A stretch of DNA of 64,000 nucleotides from a candidate division WOR-3 bacterium (GTDB lineage: Bacteria > Hydrothermota > UBA3073 > JACQXS01 > JAGMCI01), in assembly GCA_023129325.1 (NCBI GenBank), contig JAGMCI010000014.1:2123-66122 (forward strand), in the 5' to 3' direction. Shown here piece after piece: positions 20,122 through 60,032 of this stretch; positions within the stretch are counted from its first letter, which is position 1, and the number at the start of each line of letters is the position of its first letter. The notes below the pieces were generated by a model. That model was not told the origin of the DNA and made no database searches. It worked only from the letters and a program-made list of their open reading frames with translations. The position numbers and the translations under genes were made by a program.

Positions 20122-20128
20122 TAAATAA

Positions 20129-20902: not shown

Positions 20903-20956
20903 AAGATAGGGTACAGGGGGTAGCGTATAGGGTGTAGAGAATGATGTGGAGGAACG

Positions 20957-21310
20957 ATGAAAAGTTATAAAGAATTGATAGCATATCAAAAAGGGTATCA
21001 ATTGTGTCTGAAAGTTTATAAGACAACAACAAATTACCCAAAGCAAGAGATTTATGGATTGGTATCGCAGATGCGAAGAGCGGCGGTATCCATACCCTCA
21101 AATATAGCTGAGGGATATAGGAGAAAAACACGAAAAGCATATACCCAATTTCTTAGAATTGCTTTGGGTTCATGTAGCGAATTAGAAACTCAGATTTCAT
21201 TATCTAAGGATTTGGGATTTATAGGGGCTAAGGATTACAGGGTACTATATGAGTTACAAGTTGAAGTTACCAAGTTATTAATTAAATTAATAGCTTCTTT
21301 AGAAAAATGA
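20957..21310 (+). CDS. Four-helix-bundle protein (23S rRNA intervening-sequence protein / Avd-like family)
   Basis: YQKGYQLCLKVYKTTTNYPKQEIYGLVSQMRRAAVSIPSNIAEGY...FLRIALGSCSELETQ is the family signature. Confidence 0.85.
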   Translation: MKSYKELIAYQKGYQLCLKVYKTTTNYPKQEIYGLVSQMRRAAVSIPSNIAEGYRRKTRKAYTQFLRIALGSCSELETQISLSKDLGFIGAKDYRVLYELQVEVTKLLIKLIASLEK

Positions 21311-21385
21311 CCCTACACCCGGAATTTATCCCGCACCAAGCGGAACCCTACACCCTGCACCCTTTACCCTATACCCTGATGTATT

Positions 21386-25276: not shown

Positions 25277-25279
25277 CTC

Positions 25280-25924: not shown

Positions 25925-25925
25925 A

Positions 25926-26912: not shown

Positions 26913-26921
26913 AAATGGCCT

Positions 26922-28166
26922 ATGAGAATTTTAGTTATCTCTAATTTTTATCCTCCTCATCATTTTGGAGGGTATGAACTACGGTGTAAAGACATCGTTA
27001 GCAATTTGCAGAAAAAAGGTCATAAGACTGTCATTCTTACCAGCATTTATAGAGTTCATAAGACTCAAGTAAAAAATAATATCTATAGAGCGCTTTCTTA
27101 TCAGCTTAAATATTTTAATAAAACATCCCTCAAGAATACCATTATTAAAGAATTAAGGGACATCCACACTTTAAAGAGTCTGATTAACTGGTGGAGACCT
27201 GATTTAATTTATATTTTTAATATGGGATGTTTAAGTAAATCATTATTAAGAACCATATCTTCGTGTAAATTACCCGTTGTTTATGACATTTCTGATTCCT
27301 GGCTTATCAAGAACTGGATTTGTGATAATTGGTTAATTTACTGGCAGTCCTCTTCTGATTTAGCGTTTATTCGGTTTCTCAAATTGAAATTTTTGGGATT
27401 AATTACAAAAAAATATATTAAGAAATATTCTAAATATATACTCCCAATAGATTCCCTTACTTTAAATTTGAAATATGTCTATTTTACTAGCAATTTTCTC
27501 AAGACTGTATATTTTAGAGGTGGTTTTCATGTAGGAAAAGCACCCATAATCCCTTGTGGTATCCCAATGAGTTTAATAGCCCTGAGAGGAGAGAAAAGAA
27601 GTCCGCTAAAATTACTGTATGTGGGAAACATACAAAGAGATAAAGGTATTCATACTGCAATTGAAGCAATCTCAATATTGACGAAGAAAACTCCTATTCA
27701 TAGCTTGAGCATCATTGGTGGTATTGTAGATATAGAATATACAGAAGAGTTAAAAGTTAAGAGAGAAGTAGAAAATTTACCAGTAATGTTTATTGGTCAA
27801 TTCCCACGTGATAAAGTATTGGGTATTTATAAAAAACATGACATTTTGATATTTCCTTCTATTTGTGAAGAGTCGTTTTCTCTTGTCATTCTTGAAGCAA
27901 TGGCAAGTGGATTAGCTGTTATATCCACTGCTACAGGAGGTAATAAGGAGTTTTTAAAAGATGGTAAAAATTGCCTCATATTCCGTCCCGGTGATGCTAA
28001 TGACCTTGCCTCAAAAATAGAAATCCTTATCAAAAATCCTGACTTACGGAAGAGACTCGGAAACAATGCATCTAAATTTGTAAGAAAAAACTTTGATATT
28101 GAAAAAATAGTGGATAAAATAGAGGAATATCTGAAATGGGTGGTGGAAGATTTTAAAAATGCCTAA
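26922..28166 (+). CDS. Glycosyltransferase, GT4
   Basis: FPSICEESFSLVILEAMASGLAVISTATGG block. Confidence 0.85.
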   Translation: MRILVISNFYPPHHFGGYELRCKDIVSNLQKKGHKTVILTSIYRVHKTQVKNNIYRALSYQLKYFNKTSLKNTIIKELRDIHTLKSLINWWRPDLIYIFNMGCLSKSLLRTISSCKLPVVYDISDSWLIKNWICDNWLIYWQSSSDLAFIRFLKLKFLGLITKKYIKKYSKYILPIDSLTLNLKYVYFTSNFLKTVYFRGGFHVGKAPIIPCGIPMSLIALRGEKRSPLKLLYVGNIQRDKGIHTAIEAISILTKKTPIHSLSIIGGIVDIEYTEELKVKREVENLPVMFIGQFPRDKVLGIYKKHDILIFPSICEESFSLVILEAMASGLAVISTATGGNKEFLKDGKNCLIFRPGDANDLASKIEILIKNPDLRKRLGNNASKFVRKNFDIEKIVDKIEEYLKWVVEDFKNA

Positions 28167-28790
28167 ATACCTAAATGCCTAAAAGAAAGAATATTTGCTG
28201 AAAGACCAAAGACATAAGACTAAAGACTCAAGACTAAAGGAGATAAACCTGAAATTCTGTGGCTTGAATTTAAATTCTTGACTCTTTAAACCGCAGACTT
28301 GTCCCGATACGGAACGGGTCGGGAGGACATAGAGATAAAATCAATAATATTAACCGCAAATGGACGCAGATAGCCACAGATTAAACAAAGAAAAACTTTA
28401 TCACTGAAATACGGAATGACTGGAACACGGAGAATTCTTTAATTCACAAAAAGATTGTAACTCAAGGCTTTAGCCTTGATATCAACCCTAAAGAGTTAAG
28501 TTACAAATCTACCTGTCAGCAGACAGTTTTCTGTGTTCCCTTCTTTTTCCCGTGCTTTCGCGATAAAAAAATCTTTTGACTTGACAAAATACTTTTTAAT
28601 GATTATATTATAAAAAAGAAACTTTTTAGCTACAAAGGACACGGATGACAAAAAAATCTCAAAATTCAAATCGCAAATTTCAAACAAGCATCAATGTTCA
28701 AAATTCTAATGCCTAAAACTGTTTTGATTTTGGGATTTTGGATTTGTTTGGGATTTGGTACTTTGGATTTGGGATTTCCCTGTATCTGTG
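28158..28790. repeat. About 600 bp of non-coding mosaic made of heptamer arrays and hairpins
   Basis: Arrays include CCTAAAT (28158-28186), NAAGACN x5 (28201-28242), AAATNNC (about 28645-28680) and its inverse GGGATTT/TGGATTT (about 28722-28785). Hairpins include TCCCGA..TCGGGA (28302-28324). Confidence 0.7.
28581..28609 (+). promoter_or_regulatory. Sigma-70-like promoter
   Basis: TTGACA, a 17-nt spacer, then TATATT, about 200 nt upstream of the beta-propeller gene. Confidence 0.4.
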
Positions 28791-28808
28791 TCTAAAAAAG
28801 GGGGGATT

Positions 28809-30308
28809 ATGTATAAATTATTTTTTATGTTATGTTTCTTGCTTCCCATTTCTCACTTTTCACTTCTCACTTCTTCTTTCGCCGCCACCTGGGAAAAGAC
28901 TTTTGGAGGGACAGGTCAGGATGAGGGATGGTCTGTTGAGCAAACCACAGATGGTGGATTTATTATAGCTGGAATGACATCCTCATTTGGAGCAGGTGAA
29001 AGCGATGTATATTTGATAAAATTAGACAGTCTTGGTAATGAGGTATGGATGAAGACTTTTGGTGGAGACAGTGCAGATGAGGGACGATGTGTTAAACAAA
29101 CTCAAGATAGCGGATTTATCATAACCGGATATACAAAATCATACGGAGCAGGTGATAAGGATATATGGCTTATAAAAACAAAGAGTTCTGGTGATACCAG
29201 TTGGACAAAAACTTTTGGAAGTAATAAACCAGATGAGGGATGGTCTGTTGAGCAAACGACAGATGGTGGATTTATTGTAGCTGGAGCAACGCATTCATGG
29301 GGAGCAAAAGAGAGTGATGTGGTTCTGATAAAAACAAATAGTCTCGGTAACGATGTTTGGGGGGAAATTTTTGGGGGAGCCGATGATGATGAAGGACGCT
29401 GCGTTAGGCAAACGGCAGATAGTGGATTTATTGTAGTTGGGTATACAAAATCTTATGGGAGTGGGGATAAAAATGTATGGCTCATAAAAACAAAGAGTTC
29501 TGGCGATACCAGTTGGACAAGAATTTTTGGAGGAGGAAACCCGGATGAAGGAATGTCTGTTGAGCAAACGACAGACGGTGGATTTATTGTAGCTGGATAT
29601 ACAGAGTCGTATGGAGCAAGTGACAGGAATATATGGCTTATAAAAACAGATAATTCTGGCAATCCTGATTGGGATGAAACCCTTGGAGGAGAAGCCCCGG
29701 ATGAAGGAATGTCTGTTGAGCAAATCGCAGATGGTGGATTTATTGTAGCTGGAGCAACGCATTCATGGGGAGCAAAAGAGAGTGATGTGGTTCTGATAAA
29801 AACAAATAGTCTCGGTAACGATGTTTGGGGGGAAATTTTTGGGGGAGTTGATGATGATGAAGGACGCTGCGTTAGGCAAACGGCAGACGGTGGATTTATT
29901 ATAGTTGGGTATACAAAATCCTGTGGAGCAGGTTCCTCTGGTGTATATGTTATAAAAACAGATTCCCTTGGCAATGTTGGGGTTGAAGAAGCAATTTCTC
30001 AGTTACCAACTTATTATAGTTTATCCCAGAACTCACCAAATCCATTTAACAAAACTACAGTGATAAGCTTTCAGTGCCCAGTGACCAGTGGAAAAGAAAG
30101 AACCACCTTGAAGATTTATAACTTGAGTGGAAGACTGATTAAGACCTTATTCGATAAGACACTAACCACTAACCACTTGCCACTGACTACTACTGTCTCC
30201 TGGGATGGCAGAAATGAATCTGGCAAATTAGTAGCTAATGGAGTTTATTTTTATAAGCTAAATAGCACAAATTTCGCATCCACGAGAAAACTCATCGTCT
30301 TAAAATAG
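28809..30308 (+). CDS. Secreted seven-repeat (beta-propeller-type) protein with T9SS C-terminal sorting domain
   Basis: Start moved to the ATG at 28809, after AAGGGGGG. Signal peptide ends SSFA. Seven repeats of about 48 aa follow the pattern W.KTFGG...DEG.SV.QT.DGGFI..G.T.S.GAG..D..LIKT. The tail is PNPFNKTT...GVYFYKL...KLIVLK. Confidence 0.8.
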   Translation: MYKLFFMLCFLLPISHFSLLTSSFAATWEKTFGGTGQDEGWSVEQTTDGGFIIAGMTSSFGAGESDVYLIKLDSLGNEVWMKTFGGDSADEGRCVKQTQDSGFIITGYTKSYGAGDKDIWLIKTKSSGDTSWTKTFGSNKPDEGWSVEQTTDGGFIVAGATHSWGAKESDVVLIKTNSLGNDVWGEIFGGADDDEGRCVRQTADSGFIVVGYTKSYGSGDKNVWLIKTKSSGDTSWTRIFGGGNPDEGMSVEQTTDGGFIVAGYTESYGASDRNIWLIKTDNSGNPDWDETLGGEAPDEGMSVEQIADGGFIVAGATHSWGAKESDVVLIKTNSLGNDVWGEIFGGVDDDEGRCVRQTADGGFIIVGYTKSCGAGSSGVYVIKTDSLGNVGVEEAISQLPTYYSLSQNSPNPFNKTTVISFQCPVTSGKERTTLKIYNLSGRLIKTLFDKTLTTNHLPLTTTVSWDGRNESGKLVANGVYFYKLNSTNFASTRKLIVLK

Positions 30309-30534: not shown

Positions 30535-33500
30535 ATGAGAAAATCATTTTTTATCTTCCTTTTCACTGCTTACTGCTTACTACTTACTACTTACTCTTCT
30601 TTCGCCGATACCTGGACCCAAACTGACTGGAGTGGAGAAAGTGGACAATTATTCTATGAAGATACAACAAAGTATTGGCAAGGAAGCGGAATCGACGGAA
30701 TAGTAGATAGAGGGGTTTTGACTCTATATAAAGAAGGTATTTGGGATACAATATTTACAGTTCCAAATCAGACAAAGGTATATACTATTATTAATGGTCC
30801 CGACAGTATTCTTTTTTTGGGTTCGGGAGACAACACCTTAAAGAGCATCTACAGGTCTATAGACAATGGGAAAACATGGGCTCCTTTTATCTCTAATATG
30901 CTAAATATTGTGCCTACTCTTTTGATTGCTTTCTCTAATCTGTATATAGGAGGACGTTATTCAACAAATACTATTGCTCAGATTATCCGATTTCCTGATT
31001 TATCAAGCAGTTACGACTACTACCTTACAGTTCACGATATGTATACTTTCTATTCATTATGTAAATCATCCTCATATCTATTTGGAGCAGGTGGAGCACC
31101 AGAGGGAAGAATATATCGTTCAACAGATGAAGGAGTATCTTGGAATTGGTGTTTTACTTGCTTAGATGATAAAATATTTTCTTTACTTGCAACTAATGAT
31201 GGCACTGTATATGCAGGTACAGGAGATACCTATGGAAGAATATATAAATCTATAAATTATGGTAGTAATTGGACTGAAACAGGTGAGTTGCCAGGTGCAA
31301 AGTCTGTCTATAGTCTTACCCAAGGAGCTGATAGTGCAATATATGCTGGAACTGATACTGCTGGGATAGTGTATAAAACTACGGGTGAAGGAAACACCTG
31401 GATTTCTACTGGAAAACTTCAAGGAGCTACAAAAGTTTATTCTCTAATATGCGGGCCCAACGGTTATCTCTATGCAGGATGCAAATGTGAAGATGATAGT
31501 GCGCGTATATTTGCTTCTATTGATAATGGTGATAATTGGACAAATATAGGAATACTCCCTGGGGCTACTTCTGTTACCTGTCTTTTATTTACAAATAATA
31601 GCTCTTTACTTGCCGGAACAGATTATAATGGCGTCATATTTAAAGCTCCAAAATTTGATACATCTGGATATCTTGTATCTTCTATTTATAATATAGGAAC
31701 AGCTAATGGAAGTGTTGAATATGGGACTATATTATGGGATGCAACTGCTGATACACAAGATATTATTGTTAAAGTGAGAACATTTCAGGATACTGTGAGC
31801 TGGAGCGATACCACTGCCTGGGATAGCGATAGCTGTGTTCCAGTCGCAAATGGACAAGATATATCTGAAATACCTTCTGTAGATGATGGTGACCAATTTG
31901 TTCAGTATAGAGTTGAGCTTTCAACTCAAAGTCCGTTTGTAACTCCAATATTTGATGAAATATCAATAAATTATTCTTTAGATACTATTGCACCTGTGAT
32001 TGTCACGGCTGTCGCTTATGGTAACGAGGAATTAATTCCACCAGATTCAATAATCTCTCAAGACAGAGTAATAATTTCGTTTAGTGAGCAGGTAGATACA
32101 AGTCATGCACATATTAATGTATCCAATATTGACTCTATCTTGAGGTTAAGTAATAATCATTCCTGGCTTGATAATTCTGGAACTTTTCAATCTATTGTAT
32201 GGGAAGACTCAACTACTTTAAAAATTACTCTTGGTGAAGATATATGGTCTGGTATGGTTGCTTCAGGAGATACTATAACTCCTTTGCCTGATAGTATTAA
32301 AGATAAATGGGGAAATCCAGCTACATCTTATTGTGTTATTACTGGTTCTTTTGCTCCAAATATTGATTCTATAATTGTTTCTGATGGCTCTGATTCAATT
32401 GAATATATTGATAACGATGATTATGTTAGTTTTTATTTTTCAAAGCGCACAAATAAACCAAAAATTGATAAAAATAATATAAATTCCGTTCTTCAAATCC
32501 CTGAACATACCTGGCTTGATGGATTGGCTGAACTTAGAGGAGATTCCGCTATTTGGGATACATTTGGATTTACACTTACTTGTTCTTTAAAAATAGATAG
32601 TTTAAGACCTACAATTCAGATTGGTGACACGGTATTTCCTGATGGAATTACAATATGGGATAAATTTTTGAGAGACTCGGTTGCAAATCCAGCTATAATT
32701 GGAGGTACTTTTGGAGATTATGGACCTGTTCCGGAATCTGCCATCGCTTATGAATTTGGTCCCCCTGAATCAGGAATTGGAGATGGTGATATAGTATGGA
32801 TTTTCTTTAATGAACTTATAGATACTAATATAAATTGGGATTCTGTAGACCTTGATACTATATTAACCCCACAAAAAAATGGTATCCAGCACACCTGGCA
32901 TCCTGATAGTTTATCATATGATGTTCAGCCCATAGATATGCAAGACCCACAAGGAATACCATATACTGTGCTTTATATATCTTTTTTCTATCCAGGAGTA
33001 GAAGAGTTTTTTCCCTCAATTACTTCTTATAAACTATTTCAAAACTTTCCAAACCCATTTTCTAAAGGCACACTTATTAAATATCAAATATCAGATATCA
33101 GATATCAGATATCAGAGGTCAGAGGTCCCGATATGAAATCGGGATCCTCATTTTTGTATTCAAATCAAAGACTTGAACAAAAATGGGATAAGAAGACAGA
33201 AGTAAGACCTAAATACCAATTACCAATTACCAATTACCAGATTCTCCCCATTGCTATTGGAGATACGCTTTATCCGGATTCAAGCACAATTCAGGATTTT
33301 AAGGGACATAAATGTATAAAGCCAGTTGTTCTTCAGGGCGCATTCAAAAAACAGGGTAAAGGGCAAAGGGTGAAGGGTAAAGTCAAAACTCTTAACCCCG
33401 TCTGCCAAAGCGAAGCGGCGGGCAGGTCACAACCCACAGCTACTCCGGTTTCCTTAAGAATTTATGACATTGCAGGGCGCTTGGTTCGAACACTAATAAA

Positions 33501-33642
33501 TGAGTCTAAAGTAGCTGGCAGTTACGAAATTTACTGGGACGGAAAAGATTCAGAAGGCAGAAAAGTAAAGAGTGGTATTTACTTTTATAAACTAACTGTA
33601 GGAGAACATACTTTCATAAGAAAAGCAATTTGTATAAGATAA
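30535..33642 (+). CDS. Large secreted BNR/Asp-box repeat protein with an interrupted T9SS C-terminal sorting domain
   Basis: Signal peptide ends SSFA. Asp-box-like motifs are SIDNGKTW, STDEGVSW, SINYGSNW, TGEGNTW and SIDNGDNW. The tail FQNFPNPFSKGTLIKYQI ... PVSLRIYDIAGRLV...GIYFYKL is split by about 360 nt. Confidence 0.8.
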   Translation: MRKSFFIFLFTAYCLLLTTYSSFADTWTQTDWSGESGQLFYEDTTKYWQGSGIDGIVDRGVLTLYKEGIWDTIFTVPNQTKVYTIINGPDSILFLGSGDNTLKSIYRSIDNGKTWAPFISNMLNIVPTLLIAFSNLYIGGRYSTNTIAQIIRFPDLSSSYDYYLTVHDMYTFYSLCKSSSYLFGAGGAPEGRIYRSTDEGVSWNWCFTCLDDKIFSLLATNDGTVYAGTGDTYGRIYKSINYGSNWTETGELPGAKSVYSLTQGADSAIYAGTDTAGIVYKTTGEGNTWISTGKLQGATKVYSLICGPNGYLYAGCKCEDDSARIFASIDNGDNWTNIGILPGATSVTCLLFTNNSSLLAGTDYNGVIFKAPKFDTSGYLVSSIYNIGTANGSVEYGTILWDATADTQDIIVKVRTFQDTVSWSDTTAWDSDSCVPVANGQDISEIPSVDDGDQFVQYRVELSTQSPFVTPIFDEISINYSLDTIAPVIVTAVAYGNEELIPPDSIISQDRVIISFSEQVDTSHAHINVSNIDSILRLSNNHSWLDNSGTFQSIVWEDSTTLKITLGEDIWSGMVASGDTITPLPDSIKDKWGNPATSYCVITGSFAPNIDSIIVSDGSDSIEYIDNDDYVSFYFSKRTNKPKIDKNNINSVLQIPEHTWLDGLAELRGDSAIWDTFGFTLTCSLKIDSLRPTIQIGDTVFPDGITIWDKFLRDSVANPAIIGGTFGDYGPVPESAIAYEFGPPESGIGDGDIVWIFFNELIDTNINWDSVDLDTILTPQKNGIQHTWHPDSLSYDVQPIDMQDPQGIPYTVLYISFFYPGVEEFFPSITSYKLFQNFPNPFSKGTLIKYQISDIRYQISEVRGPDMKSGSSFLYSNQRLEQKWDKKTEVRPKYQLPITNYQILPIAIGDTLYPDSSTIQDFKGHKCIKPVVLQGAFKKQGKGQRVKGKVKTLNPVCQSEAAGRSQPTATPVSLRIYDIAGRLVRTLINESKVAGSYEIYWDGKDSEGRKVKSGIYFYKLTVGEHTFIRKAICIR
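33081..33243. repeat. Composite module in frame: heptamer arrays, hairpin, heptamer array
   Basis: ATATCAA then (ATATCAG)x4 and (AGGTCAG)x2 at 33081-33127. Hairpin TCCCGAT ATGAA ATCGGGA at 33126-33144. (TACCAAT)x3 at 33214-33234. Confidence 0.85.
33352..33426. repeat. Composite module in frame: GGGYRAA heptamers plus GC-rich hairpin
   Basis: GGGTAAA GGGCAAA GGGTGAA GGGTAAA, followed by CCCCGTCTGCCAAAGCGAAGCGGCGGGCAGG. Confidence 0.8.
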
Positions 33643-39538: not shown

Positions 39539-40666
39539 ATGAAACAGAAATTGCCAAAAGTTTCTATAATAATTCTTGATTGGAATGGTGGGAAAGATAT
39601 AATAGAGTGTTTAAAATCAATTAAAGGGATAAATTACACCAATTATGAATTAATCGTTGTTGATAATGCTTCTTTTGATAACTCTGTTAATCTCATAAGG
39701 GAGAAATTTCCAAATATAAGAATAATTCAAAACAAAGAGAATCTTGGTTTTGCAGGAGGAATGAATACAGGAATAGTGCAAAGTGTAAAGTGCAAAGTGC
39801 AAAGTGATTATGTGTTACTGCTTAACCAAGATACAATAGTAGGGAAGAATTTTTTAAAGGAGCTTGTAAAAGTAGCTGAATCAGACCCAAAAATTGGGAT
39901 TGTTGGTCCAAAAATATATTACTGGAAGGAGTCAAGGAGTCAAGGGGTCAAGCTATCGAGCTATCGGGCTATCAGTAACCAATTACCAATTACCAATTAC
40001 CAATTACCAAATATTATTTGGTCTTGCGGAACAAAATTTGCAACTGGAAGTATATTTAAAATGGAAGTTCCTTACATAGCACCTGTCCCTATTGGATGTG
40101 GCAAGAAAGATAGAAGTGAGAAGCAAGAAGCAAGAGGTGAGAAAAGGGAACTCCCCAATTCTCAATCCTCAATCCTCAATTCTGATAAGGAAGTAGACGC
40201 GATTACTGGCTGTTGTATGCTTATAAAATTTGAAGTAATTGATAAAATTGGACTCTTGGATGAGAGATTTTTTATAATTCACGAAGATGATGATTATTGT
40301 GTAAGGGCAAGAAAGGCAGGATATAAAGTATGCGTGGCACCTAAATCAATAATCTGGCATAAAGTATCAACCAGTCTACTTCCCACTTCCTACTTCCCAC
40401 TTCCCACTTCCAAATCATATGAGGCAAATCCTATGACAATTTATTACGGATACAGAAATTGGTTAATAGTGTTAAGAAAACATTTTGGGAGCTTTTTTAT
40501 TAGAGTCTTTTTTACCTATATAGTTAAAGTTTTTCCGCTATCCTTTATAAATCTGATCAGGGAGCGTAAACTATCCTTGAGAATTACCCTCTCATATTTA
40601 TACATTATTCTTGATACCTTTCTGTGGAGAATGCCAAAAAGGTTCTTAAAACTTGACAAATCATAA
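39539..40666 (+). CDS. Glycosyltransferase, GT2, with four in-frame repeat insertions
   Basis: VSIIILDWNG...YELIVVDNASFDNS and LLLNQDT (DxD-type) motifs, plus ITGCCMLIKFEVIDKIGLLDERFFIIHEDDDYCVRARKAGYKV. Confidence 0.85.
   Translation: MKQKLPKVSIIILDWNGGKDIIECLKSIKGINYTNYELIVVDNASFDNSVNLIREKFPNIRIIQNKENLGFAGGMNTGIVQSVKCKVQSDYVLLLNQDTIVGKNFLKELVKVAESDPKIGIVGPKIYYWKESRSQGVKLSSYRAISNQLPITNYQLPNIIWSCGTKFATGSIFKMEVPYIAPVPIGCGKKDRSEKQEARGEKRELPNSQSSILNSDKEVDAITGCCMLIKFEVIDKIGLLDERFFIIHEDDDYCVRARKAGYKVCVAPKSIIWHKVSTSLLPTSYFPLPTSKSYEANPMTIYYGYRNWLIVLRKHFGSFFIRVFFTYIVKVFPLSFINLIRERKLSLRITLSYLYIILDTFLWRMPKRFLKLDKS
39775..39809. repeat. Heptamer array in frame
   Basis: AGTGCAA AGTGTAA AGTGCAA AGTGCAA AGTGATT, encoding VQSVKCKVQSD. 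Confidence 0.85.
39928..40012. repeat. Three consecutive arrays in frame (8-mers, 8-mers, 7-mers)
   Basis: (GGAGTCAA)x3 at 39928-39951, (GCTATCGR)x3 at 39952-39975, and (ACCAATT)x4 at 39978-40005 plus ACCAAAT. Together they encode SRSQGVKLSSYRAISNQLPITNYQLP. Confidence 0.9.
40112..40181. repeat. Two heptamer arrays in frame, joined by a short palindrome
   Basis: AGAAGTG AGAAGCA AGAAGCA AGAGGTG AGAAAAG, then GGGAACTCCCC, then CCCAATT CTCAATC CTCAATC CTCAATT. Confidence 0.85.
40377..40411. repeat. Heptamer array in frame, inverse orientation of the AGAAGTG array
   Basis: TACTTCC CACTTCC TACTTCC CACTTCC CACTTCC, which is the reverse complement of GGAAGTR. It encodes LLPTSYFPLPTS. Confidence 0.85.
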
Positions 40667-47974: not shown

Positions 47975-48003
47975 TTGACAAATCTGTAAAAACAAAGTAT
48001 ATT
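47975..48003 (+). promoter_or_regulatory. Sigma-70-like promoter
   Basis: TTGACA, a 17-nt spacer, then TATATT, 13 nt upstream of the ATG at 48016. Confidence 0.5.
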
Positions 48004-48015
48004 ATAAAAGAATAA

Positions 48016-48861: not shown

Positions 48862-48871
48862 TATTTGCAAT

Positions 48872-51461: not shown

Positions 51462-52639
51462 AGATTTGTATAGTATCACATAATTTTCCTCCTACTATAT
51501 GTGGGGTAGGAGATTACAGTTATTGGCTTGCGAATGAACTTGAGAATTTGGGTAATAATGTGAGTGTAATTACATCTAAAATTGGGTCATCGGGTTATCG
51601 GGTCATTGAGTCATCGAATCAGGTAAAGATATTTCCTATAATTGAAAAATGGGATGTATTTCATATCTTTAAAATAATCGGCATTTTGAAATGCATAAAG
51701 CCCAATATTATAATAATCCAATATGTATCTCAATTATATGGAAGGGCAGGTATTGCACCAGGAATTATATTTTTTCTAACGCTTATAAAATTGTTCAATG
51801 TTTCACACATTCAAATAATCACCACTTTACACGAACTTTATCTCCCCTGGGGCTCAAAGGATTTTATATTAGGAGCAATTCAAAGGCTTCAAGCTTTTAT
51901 CCTTGTTTTAATCTCAGATGCAGCCATTGTTACCACTAAGTCAAGAAAGAAAATACTTAATTCCCTCTTCCCTTGGAAAAGAGTATATAAAATCTCTGTA
52001 GGGTCTAATATACCAATGGGAAGTAGGAAGCGGGAAGTGAGAAGTAGGAATCACAAAGATGATAGGCTAATTTTGGGTACTTTTGGAACTCTTCATCCGG
52101 AAAGGGACTTATTAACAGTTCTTAAATCTCTCTCTATGATTCAAGTAGGGGCGTATTGCTATACGCCCCTACTTCAAATTATAGGGGAAATAGATAAAGA
52201 CTCAGAAAATTACCGCATTTTAAGAATTACAGCGAAAAAACTTGGAATAGAAGAAAGGATACGCTGGATGTCAAACATTTCTAATCAAGAAATAGCTAAT
52301 TGTTTGGCGAATTCTGATATTTATTTATCACCAGAACTTGATGGTGCTTCAGGAAGGAGGACAACTTTAATGGCTGCCCTTTCACTTGGGCTCCCAATAA
52401 TTGCTTATAATGGAAGGGAAACGGAGTCTGTATTTAAGAATTATGAAAACATAATCCTTATTCCTCCTCATAATTCTAAAATACTGACTGAAAAGATAAT
52501 GGAACTTATCAAGAATAAAAAGCTTCGGGATTCTTTGGGTAAAAAAGCAAAGGAAACTTTTAATACTTATTTTAGCTGGGATATTATAGGTAAAGAATAT
52601 GAAAAGATTTTCAAAACTATCTATCATACAACGAATTAA
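51458..52639 (+). CDS. Glycosyltransferase, GT4-like, with two in-frame repeat insertions
   Basis: GT-B layout, with GRRTTLMAALSLGLPIIAYNG as the C-terminal block. Confidence 0.7.
   Translation: MKICIVSHNFPPTICGVGDYSYWLANELENLGNNVSVITSKIGSSGYRVIESSNQVKIFPIIEKWDVFHIFKIIGILKCIKPNIIIIQYVSQLYGRAGIAPGIIFFLTLIKLFNVSHIQIITTLHELYLPWGSKDFILGAIQRLQAFILVLISDAAIVTTKSRKKILNSLFPWKRVYKISVGSNIPMGSRKREVRSRNHKDDRLILGTFGTLHPERDLLTVLKSLSMIQVGAYCYTPLLQIIGEIDKDSENYRILRITAKKLGIEERIRWMSNISNQEIANCLANSDIYLSPELDGASGRRTTLMAALSLGLPIIAYNGRETESVFKNYENIILIPPHNSKILTEKIMELIKNKKLRDSLGKKAKETFNTYFSWDIIGKEYEKIFKTIYHTTN
52018..52051. repeat. Heptamer array in frame
   Basis: GGAAGTA GGAAGCG GGAAGTG AGAAGTA GGAATCA, encoding GSRKREVRSRNH. 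Confidence 0.85.
52144..52173. repeat. Palindromic hairpin in frame
   Basis: AGTAGGGGCGTAT TGCT ATACGCCCCTACT, encoding VGAYCYTPLL. Confidence 0.85.
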
Positions 52640-54062: not shown

Positions 54063-54822
54063 AGAGGCACAAAGACTCCAAAAGCTTGCATATTCTAAAG
54101 ATAGGTTTAACCGAGCTTATCCTAAAAAGGCTTTAGCAATAGAAAAACTTCTTATAGAAAGAGCATTTTCTCTTGCCTTAGAGTATATCCCTCCGGGAGC
54201 TCATGTCCTTGATATTGGATGCGATGATGGAACTATTGCGAGAATGGCAATTAAAAGGGCATCTATAGTTATCGGAATTGATATAAGTGAAGCAAATATC
54301 AGAAGAGCCAAACAAGTTACTCAGAATCCATCTATCCAATTTTATTACTCTCCAATAGAAAATTATAAAACAAATTTAACATTTGATGTTATACTGATGT
54401 TTGAATTGATTGAGCATCTTGGAGACCCTATAATGGTATTGAAAAAAGTGAACAATTTTCTTAAGGAGAATGGCACACTAATATTATCCACTCCAAATTT
54501 TAGGTCTTTAACCAGAGAATTAAAACGGTGCCTTAACCGAATCCCTATTGTAAGAGAAATCTGTAGTAAAATTTCTCTCAAACCTCCTGATGAGATATAT
54601 AAGTTACATATAAAAGAATATGACCTCTCTGAGATAAGAAAAATGTTAAATTGTTCTGGTTTTACAATAAAAAGCAAGAATGGATTAATTCTATTTCCAT
54701 TATTGTTCAAAATTTTTAAATGGAATACATGGTTGACAAAGATTGTAATCTCATCAGGTTCTCTGTTTCCGAGTCTGGCTGGACACATACTTTTAGCAGC
54801 TAAGAAATATGAAAAAACTTAA
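54046..54822 (+). CDS. Class I SAM-dependent methyltransferase
   Basis: VLDIGCDDGTIA and MFELIEHLGDP motifs. The start is moved to MRKKIKE (54046) because the upstream ORF portion overlaps the preceding membrane-protein gene. Confidence 0.75.
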   Translation: MRKKIKEAQRLQKLAYSKDRFNRAYPKKALAIEKLLIERAFSLALEYIPPGAHVLDIGCDDGTIARMAIKRASIVIGIDISEANIRRAKQVTQNPSIQFYYSPIENYKTNLTFDVILMFELIEHLGDPIMVLKKVNNFLKENGTLILSTPNFRSLTRELKRCLNRIPIVREICSKISLKPPDEIYKLHIKEYDLSEIRKMLNCSGFTIKSKNGLILFPLLFKIFKWNTWLTKIVISSGSLFPSLAGHILLAAKKYEKT

Positions 54823-55927
54823 ACTATTAATCATTCAGGGATATGGGACTCAAGAAGGGGGTAACATCACCTTCATACGCCACTTGGTAAATTATATTGA
54901 CAAAACAAAGTTTGAAACAACGTTGTTATTCTTATCACCTGGCAAACTTGTAAACGAATTTCATAATAAAAGATTTAATGTAGCGGTCATAAAATCTGGA
55001 AAAGTTAGAAATATTTCACTTGGAGTAATAACTATTCTTAGAATTGTCTTTTTTATACATAAACACAAATTCAATGTTGTCTTCAGTAATGATTGCCGTG
55101 AACATATATACGGCGGCACCGCCGCCTGGCTTGCAGGTGTCCCATCAACTTTTTTCTGGCATGGTTTCTTTGCGCCTTTACCTTTACTTAAACTTGCACT
55201 TCTTGTTCCGACAAGTGCTATATTTACGAATAGTAAAGAAATCAAGCAAGCAATTGATAATTACTTAAATTATAAAAAGAAAACACGGTTTATAACACTT
55301 GGAGTAGAATTACCAAATTTACCATCTAAAAACGAACTTCGTGCCAAATTGGGTTTTGACTCCTGTATTCCAATAATTACACAAGTTTCCGTATTTCTGC
55401 CTTTTAAAGGACACAGGTATTTAATTGAAGCATCTTTAAAAATAATAAAAATCTTTCCTGAAACGAAATTTTTCATTGTAGGAAATGCTCCTTTTCCCGA
55501 GTTTAAATCATACAAAACCAAAATGGAAAACATAGTAAAGAACTTGGGATTGGAGAAAAACATTATGTTTTTGGGACACAGAGAAGATGTTTTAGAAATT
55601 ATGTCTGCTTCTGATATAATAGTTCATCCAATTGTAGCTCCTGAGCCATTTGGATTTATAATTCCAGAATCTTGGTCTTGTGCAAGACCTATAATTGCAT
55701 CAAATATAGGTGGACCAAAAGAAATTATAGAAGACGGAGTAGATGGAATTTTAATTCCCCCAAAAGACTCCAATACGTTAGCAAAAGTAACTTTACGACT
55801 TCTTAAAAATAAAAAACTTTGTAAAGAAATGGGCAAAAATGGAAGAAAAAAAGTGGAAAAATATTTTCGGGCAAACAAGATGGTAAAAGAAATAGAGGAA
55901 ATATGGCTCAATTTAATACACTCATAA
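54809..55927 (+). CDS. Glycosyltransferase, GT4
   Basis: HPIVAPEPFGFIIPESWSCARPIIASNIGGPKEII block. Confidence 0.8.
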   Translation: MKKLKLLIIQGYGTQEGGNITFIRHLVNYIDKTKFETTLLFLSPGKLVNEFHNKRFNVAVIKSGKVRNISLGVITILRIVFFIHKHKFNVVFSNDCREHIYGGTAAWLAGVPSTFFWHGFFAPLPLLKLALLVPTSAIFTNSKEIKQAIDNYLNYKKKTRFITLGVELPNLPSKNELRAKLGFDSCIPIITQVSVFLPFKGHRYLIEASLKIIKIFPETKFFIVGNAPFPEFKSYKTKMENIVKNLGLEKNIMFLGHREDVLEIMSASDIIVHPIVAPEPFGFIIPESWSCARPIIASNIGGPKEIIEDGVDGILIPPKDSNTLAKVTLRLLKNKKLCKEMGKNGRKKVEKYFRANKMVKEIEEIWLNLIHS

Positions 55928-56667
55928 ATAAAGTAATAACTTCAGAAAGATGGTTTCCGGAAACTTTTAAAAAAGATATAGACTTTAGATATCTTCTTAC
56001 AAAACATTATTGCAAAGACAAAGTCGTCTTAGATGCCGGATGTGGAGTTGGATATGGAGCTACTATATTAGCTGCCACTGCAAGAAAGGTTTTCGCTGTG
56101 GATTATTCGAAAGAGACCATAAATTATGCAAAAACTAATTATAAAGCATCGGAACTTTCATACCTTGTCATGAATGTAAAAGAACTTGGTTTTAAACCTC
56201 ATAGCTTCGATAGAGTAGTAACCATTGAAGTTTTTGAGCATTTCCGTGAATATAATACTTTCCTTTTTGAAGTTAAAAGAGTATTAAAAACAAATGGCAC
56301 TTTTATTATGAGTACTCCAAACAAAGTTTTCCATACCATTGACCAAAAGGGCTTAAAATATTATGAACCTTACCATGTAAACTTAGTTAACTTCAAGACT
56401 TTAAAAAAAATCTTAAATAACTATTTTTCATCTGTGAAAATATGGGGAATAGGAAAACATAAAAATCATTTTTATAAATTATTGCAACTGCTTGACTTTT
56501 TAAATTTCCGACTTTTTTTAAAAGAGAAACAGCGAAAAATAATTAAAAAAAATCCTGTATTTATAAATAATAGTGATTTAAAATATAAGGAAGAAATTGA
56601 ATTAAAATCTGTAAATCATTGGAATGCTCATACATTTCAAGGATTCTTTGCTGTATGTGAAATATGA
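55903..56667 (+). CDS. Class I SAM-dependent methyltransferase
   Basis: VLDAGCGVGYGA and TIEVFEHF motifs. Confidence 0.8.
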   Translation: MAQFNTLINKVITSERWFPETFKKDIDFRYLLTKHYCKDKVVLDAGCGVGYGATILAATARKVFAVDYSKETINYAKTNYKASELSYLVMNVKELGFKPHSFDRVVTIEVFEHFREYNTFLFEVKRVLKTNGTFIMSTPNKVFHTIDQKGLKYYEPYHVNLVNFKTLKKILNNYFSSVKIWGIGKHKNHFYKLLQLLDFLNFRLFLKEKQRKIIKKNPVFINNSDLKYKEEIELKSVNHWNAHTFQGFFAVCEI

Positions 56668-57461
56668 AAATTAAAATATGCATAACAGTAGATATGGAAC
56701 AAGATATCCCTCCAATTATGCAAACATATAAAGGAATAGAAATTGGTATTCCCTATCTTTTAAATATCTTCAAGACTTATAAAGTAAAAGCAACATTCTT
56801 TGCAACAGGTAATATCGCAGATAAATATCCAAAAATAATTTCTGAAATAATAAATAGAGGTCACGAGATTGGCTGTCATGGAATGTGGCATGAAGATTTA
56901 AGCGCATCGAATTACCAAGATAAGTCAAACAGAATTAGTGAAGCGACTCGGATAATAGAAGATATTGTGGGAGAAAAAATTGTGAGCTTCAGAGCTCCTT
57001 ATCATTTGATAAATGCTGAATTGCTTTCTGTTTTGGAGTCACACGGTTATCTTATAGAAGCATCTAAATTTCAGAAGTCAGAAGTCAGAAGTCAGAAGTC
57101 AGATATGCCTTACTATCCAAATAATATGAAGATATTGAGAGTGCCATTATCTCTTCCTCCCGCTTCTTACTTCCCGCTTCTTACTTCCCGCTTCTTACTT
57201 TCTTTATACAATATGTCCTGGATTCTTGGATATAAATATGCAGTTTTCAAACAAAGAAGAGAAAAAATAAAAGTTATAATTCTTGGCTCTCATTCATGGG
57301 AATTCGTGGACATTCCTGAATCTCCTGAGAATTATAGGAAAATATATGGTAAACACTCACGGGATAAATTAAATGAATTATTTAAATATTTGAATCCGTC
57401 AGCTGACGGAAAGAATGTAGAATTTATAACTATAAAAGAACTGCTTAAATATGATTTCTAA
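56664..57461 (+). CDS. Polysaccharide deacetylase-family protein with three in-frame repeat insertions
   Basis: KATFFATGNIADKYP...GHEIGCHGMWHE and SFRAPY motifs. Confidence 0.8.
   Translation: MKIKICITVDMEQDIPPIMQTYKGIEIGIPYLLNIFKTYKVKATFFATGNIADKYPKIISEIINRGHEIGCHGMWHEDLSASNYQDKSNRISEATRIIEDIVGEKIVSFRAPYHLINAELLSVLESHGYLIEASKFQKSEVRSQKSDMPYYPNNMKILRVPLSLPPASYFPLLTSRFLLSLYNMSWILGYKYAVFKQRREKIKVIILGSHSWEFVDIPESPENYRKIYGKHSRDKLNELFKYLNPSADGKNVEFITIKELLKYDF
57071..57105. repeat. Perfect heptamer tandem array in frame
   Basis: (TCAGAAG)x4 at 57071-57098 followed by TCAGATA, encoding QKSEVRSQKSD. Confidence 0.9.
57151..57202. repeat. 14-nt tandem array in frame, roughly inverse to the TCAGAAG array
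   Basis: (CCCGCTTCTTACTT)x3 at 57159-57200, encoding PASYFPLLTSRFLL. Confidence 0.9.
57395..57410. repeat. Perfect 16-nt palindrome in frame
   Basis: TCCGTCAGCTGACGGA, encoding PSADG. Relatives are at 33791-33806 and 59554-59569. Confidence 0.8.
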
Positions 57462-58659
57462 AATACCAGTTGCCGAACCAGTAATAGGTGAAAAAGAGTT
57501 TAAATATGTAAATGATGCTTTAAAATCCTGCTGGGTATCCTATGGTAAATATATTGATGAGTTTGAAGCAAAATTCGCTTCATATTGCGGAGCAAAGCAT
57601 GGAATTGCTGTAACTAATGGCACAGTAGCTTTACACCTCGCATTGGTAAGTCTTAATATAGGGGAGAAAGATGAAGTTATACTTCCCACTCTTACATTTG
57701 CCTCTACTTGTGAAGCTGTTCTATATACACATGCAAAACCTGTATTTTGCGACTCAGAAAAGGATACCTGGTGTATTGACCCCACTAAAATTGAGAAAAA
57801 AATTAATCCAAATACAAAAGTTATAATTCCTGTGCATCTTTATGGTCATCCAGCTAATATGAAACCGATACTTGAAATTGCAAAAAAATATAATTTGTAT
57901 GTAATTGAAGATGCCTGTGAAGCTCATGGGGCAGAAATACAGATGTCAGAAGTTAGAAGTCAGAAGCAAGGGAATAAAAAGTCTTGGAAGAAAGTAGGAA
58001 GTTTTGGAGACATAGGAGTCTTTAGTTTTTATGGGAACAAAATCATCACTACAGGTCAAGGCGGAATGCTCATAACTGATAACAAAAAAATAGCTGATAG
58101 AGCAAGACTTTTGTATCAACATGCAATGGACCCACAGAAAAGATATTGGCATCTTGAACTTGGATACAATTATCAATTTACAAATCTTCAAGCCGCATTA
58201 GGAGTTGCACAGCTTGAGCAAATAGACTATTTTATAAAAAGAAAAAGGGAAATTGCAGAACTTTATACTTCACTTTTTAAAGATATCCCAGGTATAACAA
58301 CTCCAAAAGAAAAACACTGGGCAAAATCTGTTTTCTGGATTTATTCAATACTCATAGAACCAGAATTTGGAATCACAAGAGACAAATTGGCAATTAAATT
58401 AAAGGAACATGGAATAGAAACCAGACCAGTATTTTATCCATTACATCAAATGCCCCCTTACCTGCCTCGCCGTCTCCGTCCCGCTTCGCTTGTCGGAGCG
58501 GGGCAGGCAGGCAAGACTGGTGAACATTTTCCAGTGGCTGAAGAAATATCAAAAAAGGGATTAAGTTTGCCATCAAGTGTAAAGTTAAAAAAGAGTGATA
58601 TTAAAAAAGTAGTAAATGCAATTATAACAAGGGTTCAAGGAATCAAGAAGTCAAGCTAA
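57451..58659 (+). CDS. DegT/DnrJ/EryC1/StrS-family sugar aminotransferase with two in-frame repeat insertions
   Basis: FSFYGNKIITTGQGGMLITDN contains the PLP lysine. The layout is typical of the family. Confidence 0.85.
   Translation: MISKIPVAEPVIGEKEFKYVNDALKSCWVSYGKYIDEFEAKFASYCGAKHGIAVTNGTVALHLALVSLNIGEKDEVILPTLTFASTCEAVLYTHAKPVFCDSEKDTWCIDPTKIEKKINPNTKVIIPVHLYGHPANMKPILEIAKKYNLYVIEDACEAHGAEIQMSEVRSQKQGNKKSWKKVGSFGDIGVFSFYGNKIITTGQGGMLITDNKKIADRARLLYQHAMDPQKRYWHLELGYNYQFTNLQAALGVAQLEQIDYFIKRKREIAELYTSLFKDIPGITTPKEKHWAKSVFWIYSILIEPEFGITRDKLAIKLKEHGIETRPVFYPLHQMPPYLPRRLRPASLVGAGQAGKTGEHFPVAEEISKKGLSLPSSVKLKKSDIKKVVNAIITRVQGIKKSS
57946..57972. repeat. Heptamer array in frame
   Basis: TCAGAAG TTAGAAG TCAGAAG CAAGGG, encoding SEVRSQKQG. 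Confidence 0.8.
58457..58514. repeat. Long GC-rich imperfect hairpin in frame
   Basis: CTTACCTGCCTCGCCGTCTCCGTCCCGCTTCGCTTGTCGGAGCGGGGCAGGCAGGCAAG, encoding LPRRLRPASLVGAGQAGK. Confidence 0.8.
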
Positions 58660-58676
58660 TAAACTATAGTAAAAAG

Positions 58677-59966: not shown

Positions 59967-60032
59967 AAGGTGAAATGTTAAATGTGAAAGGCGAAAACAT
60001 AAAACATTTAACAATTTTAATATTTTACTAAT

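What the first reader, a model, noticed from the sequence alone, without database searches (positions are those of the whole stretch)
57071..57202. Perfect 7-, 8- and 14-nt tandem arrays inside CDSs could act as frameshift (phase-variation) switches
The deacetylase gene contains (TCAGAAG)x4 at 57071-57098 and (CCCGCTTCTTACTT)x3 at 57159-57200. GT2 39539 contains (ACCAATT)x4 at 39978-40005 plus two 8-mer x3 arrays. The BNR protein contains (ATATCAG)x4 at 33088-33115 and (TACCAAT)x3 at 33214-33234. None of these unit lengths is a multiple of 3. Gain or loss of one unit by slipped-strand mispairing would therefore switch the gene off or on. That is the classic contingency-locus logic for surface-glycan genes in Haemophilus, Neisseria and Campylobacter. 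Here the units would be unusually long and would occur in several genes of one locus.
Basis: inference. Interest (0 to 1): 0.7.

Follow-up and report, generated by a model that had tools for sequence, protein, structure and literature searches.

The report
Slippage-prone heptamer repeats inside glycan genes
Short 7- and 14-base tandem repeats sit in frame inside sugar-coat genes of an uncultured cold-seep bacterium (WOR-3), and one of them differs by exactly one unit between two public assemblies, which breaks the gene; it is a real but unproven on/off switch of a known kind.

Summary

The window is a roughly 57-kb glycan locus of a candidate division WOR-3 bacterium from a South China Sea cold-seep sediment. 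The arrays lie inside intact genes as stop-free, net in-frame stretches. In the deacetylase model they are the only disordered segments.

One prediction came true. A second public assembly (GCA_030643605.1) matches the window over 28.4 kb apart from 2 substitutions and one 14-nt deletion. That deletion is exactly one unit of the 14-mer array (3 to 2 units). It splits the 265-aa deacetylase into 185-aa and 82-aa pieces.

No other array differs between the assemblies I could compare. The tracts are short (3-5 units), sit mid-gene, occur several per gene, decay by point mutation and are relatively commoner in intergenic DNA. The same units occur as arrays in many phyla.

They therefore belong to the known class of heptanucleotide long simple-sequence repeats. 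They can act as frameshift switches, but tuned, reversible phase variation is not shown, and an assembler error at the 14-mer is not excluded. Read-level counting in SRR13892596 would settle both points.

The parts
56664..57461 (+). Polysaccharide deacetylase gene (265 aa) that carries two arrays. This is the intact, 'ON' allele in the window.
   Evidence: ORF. Pfam PF01522, E 8e-26. Homolog alignment A1. AlphaFold pTM 0.81.
57071..57103 (+). (TCAGAAG) x4.7, a perfect 33-nt array encoding FQKSEVRSQKSD. It adds about 7-8 aa relative to homologs.
   Evidence: The encoded residues fall in the pLDDT<50 segment 132-145. The Logan k=31 contig ends inside it, at 57100.
57158..57200 (+). (TCCCGCTTCTTACT) x3.07, a perfect 43-nt array. 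It is POLYMORPHIC: 3 units here and 2 units in DAOWLA010000028.1, where the gene splits into 185-aa and 82-aa products.
   Evidence: The encoded residues fall in the pLDDT<50 segment 165-179.
57451..58659 (+). DegT/perosamine-synthetase-like aminotransferase gene with two in-frame insertions of exactly 14 aa.
   Evidence: Pfam PF01041, E 9e-123. PDB alignment to 3bn1. Alignment A2 with 8 homologs.
57943..57984 (+). 42-nt insertion (6 heptamer lengths) made of a decayed AAGTCAG-type array. TRF calls the array at 57940-57966, x3.9, 85% matches. It encodes MSEVRSQKQGNKKS.
58462..58503 (+). 42-nt in-frame insertion that is a GC-rich hairpin rather than a tandem array. It encodes LPRRLRPASLVGAG.
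   Evidence: DNA fold -17.6 kcal/mol, z -2.98. GC island. A Logan contig starts at 58484.
39539..40666 (+). GT2 glycosyltransferase gene (375 aa; the homologs aligned are 315-331 aa) carrying seven arrays.
   Evidence: Alignment A3.
39775..39806 (+). (AGTGCAA) x4.6. It overlies a variable loop, with a net gain of only about 1-2 aa relative to homologs.
39926..40010 (+). Composite of (AAGGAGTC) x3.4, (AGCTATCG) x2.9 and a perfect (ACCAATT) x4.7. It adds about 25 aa relative to most of the homologs aligned.
40119..40180 (+). (AGAAGCA) x2.4 and (TCCTCAA) x4.1, lying within an 18-aa insertion.
40378..40411 (+). (ACTTCCC) x4.9. The unit is related to half of the 14-mer, and the peptide PTSYFPLPTS resembles PPASYFPLLTS in the deacetylase. 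The net gain is only about 3 aa.
30535..33642 (+). Secreted 1035-aa protein with a T9SS C-terminal sorting domain. It carries arrays in the signal-peptide region and in an insertion of roughly 115-125 aa inside the sorting domain.
33081..33127 (+). (ATATCAG) x5.1, perfect over 33088-33116, followed by (TCAGAGG) x2.3.
33214..33239 (+). (TACCAAT) x3.7, perfect. It is identical to the GT2 array at 39978-40010.
   Evidence: The self-BLAST match is 100% over 26 nt.
33353..33382 (+). (AGGGTAA) x4.3, imperfect.
51584..51616 (+). (GGGTCATC) x4.1, imperfect, inside GT4 gene 51458-52639.
52018..52044 (+). (GGGAAGTAAGAAGC) x1.9, the reverse complement of the deacetylase 14-mer unit, decayed, inside GT4 gene 51458-52639.
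28157..28874 (+). Cluster of intergenic and gene-edge arrays: AAATGCCT, AAAGACT, a 14-mer, TTTGGAT and CTTCTCA. It shows that the arrays are not specific to CDSs.
20907..21377 (.). Inverted heptamer arrays (GTAGGGT-type and ACCCTAC-type) that bracket a 23S-rRNA-IVP-family gene.

Best explanation
The arrays are genuine heptanucleotide-period simple-sequence repeats, with 8-nt and 14-nt derivatives. They are the same kind of long SSR that fills 'heptamer-rich' bacterial genomes.

In this WOR-3 bacterium many of them lie inside intact genes of a very large glycan-biosynthesis locus. There, only versions that are stop-free on the coding strand and net in frame have survived. Net in-frame gains seen here include 42 nt (twice), 54 nt and about 75 nt. 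They are translated into short disordered loops that the enzymes tolerate.

Because the unit is not a multiple of three, gain or loss of a single unit by replication slippage frameshifts the gene. For the 14-mer, only 0, 3 or 6 units are in frame. This has happened at least once in the source population: a 3-unit allele gives the full 265-aa deacetylase, and a 2-unit allele gives a 185-aa truncation that lacks the conserved C-terminal His motif.

The arrays are therefore de facto mutational on/off switches for glycan-modifying genes.

Shown: the arrays, their in-frame status, their loop character, one unit-number polymorphism, and the cross-phylum occurrence of the same units.

Inferred: slippage as the cause, and that OFF alleles are viable.

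Not shown: that switching is frequent, reversible or selected. My reading is that these are by-products of a genome-wide repeat-generating process that incidentally give phase-variation-like behaviour, rather than tuned contingency loci.
For: - Perfect period-7 arrays number 12, against 0.23 expected.
- Three independent assemblies reproduce the arrays base for base. ERZ23498859 is 100% identical over window 11386-29379 and 29793-50666. DAOWLA is identical apart from the changes listed next.
- Across 28.4 kb of DNA compared with DAOWLA, the only indel is exactly one 14-nt unit inside the 43-nt array, and there are 2 substitutions elsewhere. The 2-unit allele is called as 185-aa and 82-aa genes.
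- In-frame insertions: two of exactly 14 aa in the aminotransferase against 8 homologs and PDB 3bn1; +25 and +18 aa in GT2; about 7-8 aa at each array in the deacetylase.
- In the AlphaFold model of the deacetylase, the only segments with pLDDT<50 are residues 132-145 and 165-179, which are the array-encoded stretches.
- Decayed arrays at 57940-57966 and 52018-52044 sit beside perfect ones, which indicates turnover.
- (TCAGAAG)>=3 occurs in more than 120 contig stretches from many species representatives in at least 7 phyla. Period 7 also dominates in those loci (367 of 472 perfect arrays). 55 of 128 such arrays lie in stop-free spans of at least 150 codons.
- Literature: heptanucleotide units are the commonest long SSR in prokaryotes (Mrazek 2007 as summarised in PMC4679880). 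SSR frameshifting of glycan genes is an established mechanism (PMC2651432, PMC3315296).
Against: - There is only one polymorphic array. It is seen only between short-read assemblies that probably draw on the same sediment population, so an assembler mistake or a one-off pseudogene allele is possible.
- GT2, the secreted protein and GT4 are identical in both NCBI contigs.
- No read-level data and no close relative exist in the databases. The next-best homologs are 44-57% identical.
- Two GT2 arrays add almost no net length. Simple expansion does not explain that.
- Recurrence of identical units in different genes and in unrelated organisms hints at a copy-paste or sequence-specific origin rather than pure local slippage.
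Confidence: 0.6

Rival explanations
1. These are true, selected contingency loci. The arrays are maintained because rapid, reversible ON/OFF switching of several glycan genes diversifies the cell surface, for example against phages or grazers in the sediment.
For: - The arrays sit in glycosyltransferase, deacetylase, aminotransferase and secreted-protein genes of one roughly 57-kb glycan locus.
- One ON/OFF polymorphism was found exactly as predicted.
- Several arrays are perfect, which suggests ongoing slippage.
- Only 1 perfect array was found in about 15 kb of flanking housekeeping DNA, against 16 in the 64-kb window.
Against: - The tracts have only 3-5 units, against mostly 13-38 for the H. 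influenzae heptanucleotide tracts whose unit counts are quoted in PMC2651432.
- Relative positions in the genes range from 0.01 to 0.91 with no N-terminal bias (compare PMC3315296).
- Seven arrays in one gene would make restoring the ON state improbable.
- Arrays are 2-3 times over-represented in the 8.8% of the window that is intergenic.
- Glycan genes at 6-20 kb and 41.6-51.5 kb lack convincing arrays.
- The flank sample is too small to show enrichment (Poisson p about 0.1).
- About 18 other arrays are invariant between assemblies.
Confidence: 0.25
2. These are inert, tolerated in-frame repeats with no switching role. The 2-unit allele is either an assembler error in the third-party re-assembly or a dead-end pseudogene in a minor co-existing strain.
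For: - All arrays are in frame in the window and encode disordered loops.
- Many arrays are decayed.
- All other arrays are identical across assemblies.
- The DAOWLA contig also differs at 2 SNPs, so the 2-unit allele may simply mark another strain.
- Short-read de Bruijn assemblers can mis-count tandem units.
Against: - A 43-nt array is shorter than the reads. With a 14-nt unit it forms no graph cycle once k is 30 or more. The published pipeline used MEGAHIT with k up to 141 and then metaSPAdes (PMC9357000), so a mis-count is unlikely. This is an inference.
- The only indel in 28.4 kb falls exactly on a repeat unit boundary inside an array that covers 0.15% of the compared DNA.
- In-frame arrays built from 3 or more non-triplet units imply either passage through frameshifted intermediates or multi-unit events.
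Confidence: 0.3
3. The arrays are written into genes by a copy-paste or mobile process rather than grown in place. Candidates are template switching or gene conversion from other arrays, or a small mobile element that also carries the GC-rich palindromes. Selection then keeps only the in-frame insertions. This rival concerns origin. It is compatible with later slippage.
For: - Identical units occur in different genes: TCAGAAG in two adjacent genes; ACCAATT in GT2 and the secreted protein, 100% over 26 nt; ACTTCCC and the 14-mer family in three genes.
- Two insertions of exactly 42 nt lie in one gene, one an array and one a hairpin.
- The composite insertion in the T9SS domain combines arrays and hairpins.
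- The same 28-nt stretch of the 14-mer array occurs in an unrelated, visibly GC-rich metagenome contig, and (TCAGAAG)n occurs in at least 7 phyla.
- Two GT2 arrays replace native sequence rather than add to it.
Against: - No transposase, target-site duplication or conserved element boundary was found.
- The self-BLAST finds no shared sequence between insertions beyond the arrays themselves.
- The unit vocabulary shared with the 120 other loci is no greater than chance, apart from the unit that was searched for.
Confidence: 0.15
4. The arrays themselves are sequencing or assembly artefacts.
For: The sequence is a short-read metagenome assembly. Logan k=31 contigs break inside or beside arrays.
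Against: - Independent assemblies (GenBank MAG, SPIRE/ENA, third-party NCBI) reproduce the arrays they cover identically, apart from the 14-mer, and a Logan contig matches up to its break inside the TCAGAAG array.
- The arrays keep the ORFs open.
- The same phenomenon occurs in isolate genomes of other phyla.
Confidence: 0.02

Closest known systems
SSR contingency loci (slipped-strand phase variation) in LPS, capsule and adhesin genes of Haemophilus influenzae, Neisseria and Campylobacter
   Same: A non-triplet tandem unit lies inside the CDS of a surface-glycan gene. A change of one unit frameshifts and truncates the product. A unit-number difference between near-identical genomes was observed here. 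Heptanucleotide tracts inside ORFs are described for H. influenzae (PMC2651432).
   Different: The tracts here have 3-5 units, not about 10-40. They are mid-gene rather than 5'-proximal, with up to seven per gene. They are also abundant in intergenic DNA. The organism is a free-living, uncultured sediment bacterium. Reversibility, rate and phenotype are untested.
Heptanucleotide long simple-sequence repeats (LSSR; Mrazek, Guo and Shah 2007), cyanobacterial STRR repeats and TAACTGA repeats of Beggiatoaceae, Cyanobacteria and Bacteroidetes (MacGregor 2015, PMC4679880)
   Same: Period 7 dominates strongly. There are many arrays of 2-6 units, both intergenic and genic. Only the stop-free orientation is found inside ORFs. 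The same unit is shared across distant phyla. TAACTGA arrays (canonical form AACTGAT) co-occur in the fetched loci.
   Different: Many different units occur here rather than one favoured heptamer. A large share lie inside well-conserved enzymes as internal loop insertions, whereas in BOGUAY most are upstream of start codons or at protein ends (PMC4679880). The lineage (WOR-3) has not been reported for such repeats, as far as the papers I read show.
Rickettsia palindromic elements (RPEs), short repeats inserted in frame into protein-coding genes (from my own knowledge, not tested here)
   Same: Short repeated DNA is tolerated in frame within conserved proteins, apparently in surface loops. GC-rich palindromic in-frame insertions are also present here: 58462-58503 and 52143-52172.
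   Different: RPEs are 100-150-bp palindromic elements with a family consensus. Most of the features here are tandem arrays of 20-45 nt with varied units. No family consensus was established.

Membership tests
SSR-mediated phase-variable (contingency) locus | A tandem tract whose unit is not a multiple of 3 lies within a CDS or promoter | tested here: met
   Units of 7, 8 and 14 nt lie inside intact ORFs 56664-57461, 39539-40666, 30535-33642 and 57451-58659.
SSR-mediated phase-variable (contingency) locus | Unit number varies within a population or between close strains and toggles the reading frame | tested here: inconclusive
   One case: the 14-mer has 3 units in the window and 2 in DAOWLA010000028.1, which splits the gene into 185-aa and 82-aa products. 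About 18 other arrays are invariant. The comparison is between assemblies, not reads.
SSR-mediated phase-variable (contingency) locus | Switching is frequent and reversible (ON to OFF to ON) | not testable with these tools
   This needs read-level allele frequencies, culture or reporter assays.
SSR-mediated phase-variable (contingency) locus | The tract is long enough to be hypermutable; most H. influenzae heptanucleotide tracts with quoted unit counts have 13-38 units | tested here: not met
   The arrays have 2.4-5.6 units, 17-43 nt. Comparison values come from PMC2651432.
SSR-mediated phase-variable (contingency) locus | Tracts are biased to the 5' part of the gene, so that frameshifts abolish function | tested here: not met
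   Relative positions range from 0.01 to 0.91 with no 5' bias. The criterion is from PMC3315296. The deacetylase frameshift still removes a conserved C-terminal His motif.
SSR-mediated phase-variable (contingency) locus | The affected genes encode surface, glycan or restriction-modification functions | tested here: met
   GT2, GT4, CE4 deacetylase, DegT aminotransferase and a T9SS-secreted protein, all within a glycan locus.
Heptanucleotide long SSRs (LSSR / STRR-like) | Statistical excess of tandem arrays with period 7 over other periods and over chance | tested here: met
   12 of 16 perfect arrays have period 7, against 0.23 expected.
Heptanucleotide long SSRs (LSSR / STRR-like) | Arrays are dispersed in both intergenic and genic DNA, and only stop-free orientations occur within ORFs | tested here: met
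   About 24 arrays are in CDSs and 6-10 are intergenic or at gene edges, while 91% of the window is coding. TCAGAAG, ACCAATT and ATATCAG are stop-free only on the strand used, by direct reading of the sequence.
Heptanucleotide long SSRs (LSSR / STRR-like) | The same kind of array occurs in other heptamer-rich lineages | tested here: met
   (TCAGAAG)>=3 occurs in more than 120 contig stretches from Cyanobacteria, Acidobacteriota, Nitrospirota, Planctomycetota, Verrucomicrobiota, Bacteroidota and Desulfobacterota. Period 7 dominates there too.
Heptanucleotide long SSRs (LSSR / STRR-like) | Arrays are distributed genome-wide, not in one locus only | tested here: inconclusive
   Only about 15 kb outside the window could be fetched. 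It holds one perfect 8-mer array, which is intergenic.

The most novel reading that the evidence does not exclude
The shared units may reflect a sequence-specific repeat-writing process. Identical 7-nt and 14-nt units form tandem arrays in unrelated phyla: TCAGAAG in at least 7 phyla, and CCCGCTTCTTACTT in this 32%-GC WOR-3 genome and in a visibly GC-rich contig. In one genome they recur in different genes, sometimes replacing native sequence without changing its length. Such a process might be enzyme- or element-mediated and shared or transferred across bacteria. It would install evolvable, slippage-prone loops in accessory genes. In this WOR-3 bacterium that would give combinatorial ON/OFF control over a 57-kb glycan locus.
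Probability: 0.12. Interest if true: 0.8.

Novelty: new member of a known kind. Interest (0 to 1): 0.45.

Why it matters
If read-level data confirm length heterogeneity, this would extend SSR-based phase variation of surface glycans beyond host-adapted pathogens. It would reach an uncultured, free-living candidate phylum (WOR-3) in deep-sea sediment, where phage pressure rather than immunity would be the likely driver.

It also gives a clean example of non-triplet repeats persisting inside conserved enzymes as disordered loops. That bears on the old, unresolved question of why heptanucleotide repeats are so common in certain bacterial lineages and why the same units recur across phyla.

If the 2-unit allele proves to be an assembly error, the finding reduces to an ordinary case of tolerated simple-sequence repeats.

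Tried and rejected
1. Read-level proxy through Logan k=31 contigs of SRR13892596. The contigs end at 57100, inside the TCAGAAG array, and restart at 58484, so none spans the 14-mer. No Logan protein fragments of the deacetylase or the aminotransferase turned up.

2. Third-assembly check. I tried to fetch the SPIRE/ENA scaffold_170 across the deacetylase. The look-ups returned other contigs or 'not on record'. Source labels suggest the ENA assembly carries the 265-aa form, but this is unverified.

3. One look-up was wasted on a minus-strand coordinate error.

4. I never obtained DNA from DAOWLA for window 11092-46663. Identity there rests on identical proteins, so the intergenic arrays in that stretch are uncompared with DAOWLA.

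5. I searched for close relatives to compare unit counts between strains. None exist in the protein collection; the next-best hits are 44%, 57% and 45% identical.

6. A JGI metagenome scan for the 14-mer array gave a single hit, in an unrelated organism.

7. I tested for a heptamer vocabulary shared between the window and 120 other loci. The overlap is no better than chance, apart from the unit searched for. An apparent AAGT enrichment among the window's units (4 of 11 against 5.5% background) was left as a note.

8. I looked for a mobile-element signature. The self-BLAST found no shared flanks between insertions, and Rfam found only three tRNAs.

9. I considered programmed ribosomal frameshifting, introns and inteins, and rejected them. 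The ORFs read straight through and the homolog alignments show simple loop insertions.

10. The Mrazek 2007 paper itself could not be fetched. It is cited only through PMC4679880.
Full report
**Observation**

The arrays are real. (TCAGAAG) runs perfectly over 57071-57103 (4.7 units). The 14-mer runs perfectly over 57158-57200 (3.07 units). Both lie inside the intact ORF 56664-57461.

(ACCAATT) x4.7 at 39978-40010 and two 8-mer arrays with one mismatch each lie in ORF 39539-40666. (ATATCAG) x4.1 and (TACCAAT) x3.7 lie in ORF 30535-33642.

Pfam confirms a CE4-type polysaccharide deacetylase, a GT2 glycosyltransferase and a large secreted protein with a T9SS/FlgD_ig C-terminal domain.

Of the 16 perfect arrays in the window, 12 have period 7. 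Simulated sequence with the same dinucleotide statistics gives 0.23. TRF adds about 30 imperfect arrays of period 7, 8 or 14.

**Context**

The window is 91% coding. From about 6.4 kb to 63 kb it is one + strand glycan locus of glycosyltransferases, methyltransferases, sugar aminotransferases, deacetylases, a flippase and a Wzm/Wzt ABC transporter. A tRNA cluster sits at its edge.

The proteins are annotated in GenBank as candidate division WOR-3 bacterium (MCK43525xx). The sample is SAMN18200504 / SRR13892596, sediment sample RS_16 from the Site-F cold seep, South China Sea. It was assembled with MEGAHIT (k up to 141), and the bins were re-assembled with metaSPAdes (PMC9357000).

**What the arrays are in the proteins**

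Alignments with homologs show that the arrays are loop insertions.

- The aminotransferase has two insertions of exactly 14 aa (42 nt) relative to 8 homologs and to perosamine synthetase 3bn1. One is a decayed AAGTCAG-type array (57943-57984). The other is a GC-rich hairpin (58462-58503).
- GT2 has insertions of +25 aa and +18 aa. It also has two arrays that overlie variable loops with almost no net length change.
- The deacetylase has about 7-8 extra residues at each array.
- In an AlphaFold model of the deacetylase (pTM 0.81), the only segments with pLDDT<50 are residues 132-145 and 165-179. These are the two array-encoded stretches.

Units used inside CDSs are stop-free on the coding strand. 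For TCAGAAG, ACCAATT and ATATCAG the opposite strand would introduce stops (direct reading).

The same units recur in different genes. TCAGAAG is in the deacetylase and in the adjacent aminotransferase. ACCAATT is in GT2 and in the secreted protein, 100% identical over 26 nt. The 14-mer occurs in reverse complement in GT4 at 52018-52044, and its ACTTCCC half occurs in GT2.

**The key test: unit-number polymorphism**

The closest database relative of the deacetylase is a 185-aa protein that is identical up to the 14-mer array. It lies on contig DAOWLA010000028.1 of assembly GCA_030643605.1, followed by an 82-aa ORF.

Over window 46664-64000 that contig has 0 mismatches and a single 14-nt gap. 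Direct alignment shows 2 units there against 3 in the window, with everything else identical. Over window 1-11091 it differs by 2 substitutions, at 7014 and 7260. It is therefore an independent consensus of a nearly identical population.

With 2 units the frame shifts. The product then lacks the conserved C-terminal His motif (GSHSWEF) that is present in the window's protein and its four full-length homologs.

The array-bearing GT2, secreted protein, GT4 and ABC proteins are identical on that contig. The SPIRE/ENA assembly of the same sample is 100% identical to the window over 11386-29379 and 29793-50666.

So one of roughly 19 arrays compared differs. It differs by exactly one unit, and it is the only indel in 28.4 kb.

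By inference, a 43-nt array with a 14-nt unit forms no de Bruijn cycle once k is 30 or more. Mis-assembly is therefore unlikely but not excluded. Logan contigs break at the arrays and cannot decide the matter.

**Broader picture**

They come from Cyanobacteria (Okeania, Moorena, Crocosphaera), Acidobacteriota, Nitrospirota, Planctomycetota, Verrucomicrobiota, Bacteroidota and Desulfobacterota.

In those 850 kb, period 7 again dominates: 367 of 472 perfect arrays, with minor peaks at periods 6, 8 and 14. Of the target arrays, 55 of 128 lie in stop-free spans of at least 150 codons.

The 14-mer array itself occurs about 4 times in tandem in an unrelated, visibly GC-rich peat-type metagenome contig, in intergenic DNA.

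This matches the known class of heptanucleotide long SSRs (Mrazek 2007, summarised in PMC4679880) and resembles the TAACTGA and STRR repeats (PMC4679880).

**Against tuned contingency loci**

- The tracts have 3-5 units, against mostly 13-38 for the H. influenzae heptanucleotide tracts whose unit counts are quoted in PMC2651432.
- There is no N-terminal bias (compare PMC3315296).
- Up to seven arrays occur per gene.
- Decayed copies are present.
- Arrays are 2-3 times over-represented in the 8.8% of the window that is intergenic.
- About 15 kb of flanking housekeeping DNA holds one perfect array. That sample is too small to show enrichment in the glycan locus.

**Verdict**

The arrays are members of a known repeat class. 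They can frameshift glycan genes, and in one case apparently have done so. Adaptive, reversible phase variation remains to be shown. Counting reads in SRR13892596 would decide it.

Noticed in passing
window 20907-21377, 21312-21363 / 21481-21532, 34043-34079: A 23S-rRNA-intervening-sequence-protein (bAvd-like) gene at 20957-21310 is bracketed by inverted heptamer arrays, 30-nt arms that are 77% complementary. A 52-nt segment just after it is duplicated 169 nt downstream, inside the annotated start of the Wzt ABC-transporter ORF. A related 37-nt copy lies in ORF 33834-34211. It looks like a small cassette bounded by a repeat stem.
   Followed up: partly
window 58462-58503, 33126-33146, 52143-52172: GC-rich palindromic hairpins lie in frame inside CDSs of this 32%-GC genome: the aminotransferase, the secreted protein and GT4. 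The first is an insertion of exactly 42 nt (14 aa) relative to 8 homologs. Logan contigs start at 58484 and 52146, within two of these hairpins, which suggests they are repeated elsewhere in the genome. They resemble REP or RPE elements.
   Followed up: partly
window about 33090-33450: The T9SS C-terminal sorting domain of the 1035-aa secreted protein is split by an insertion of roughly 115-125 aa, placed between FQNFPNPFSKGTLIKYQI and VSLRIYDIAGRLV. The insertion contains three heptamer arrays and hairpins, and it reads through in frame.
   Followed up: no
window 28895-29930: There are 156/312-nt tandem repeats, about 6.6 copies at 66-73% identity, inside ORF 28755-30308. This is a T9SS-secreted protein built of repeated 52-aa modules. 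The SPIRE assembly breaks here.
   Followed up: no
L130 about 2300-2360 (JGI contig Ga0187781_10001089); L007-L126: The exact 14-mer unit forms a roughly 4-unit array in an unrelated, visibly GC-rich organism. (TCAGAAG)n arrays occur in at least 7 phyla, and TAACTGA arrays co-occur in those loci. No tool result explains why identical units recur across distant lineages.
   Followed up: partly
window 7014 and 7260: These are the only two substitutions (T>C, A>C) between the window and DAOWLA010000028.1 in 28.4 kb. Both lie within 250 nt in GT1 gene 6923-8053, which suggests a small strain-specific or recombined patch.
   Followed up: no
window 5677-6133: A tRNA-Thr / tRNA-Tyr / tRNA-Gly cluster lies exactly at the boundary between the minus-strand genes and the long + strand glycan locus.
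   Followed up: no
window-wide (units of the perfect period-7 arrays): 4 of the 11 distinct heptamer units contain AAGT/ACTT in some rotation or strand, against a 5.5% background. The non-target units in the other 120 loci show 11%. This may reflect a sequence preference of the repeat-forming process.
   Followed up: partly
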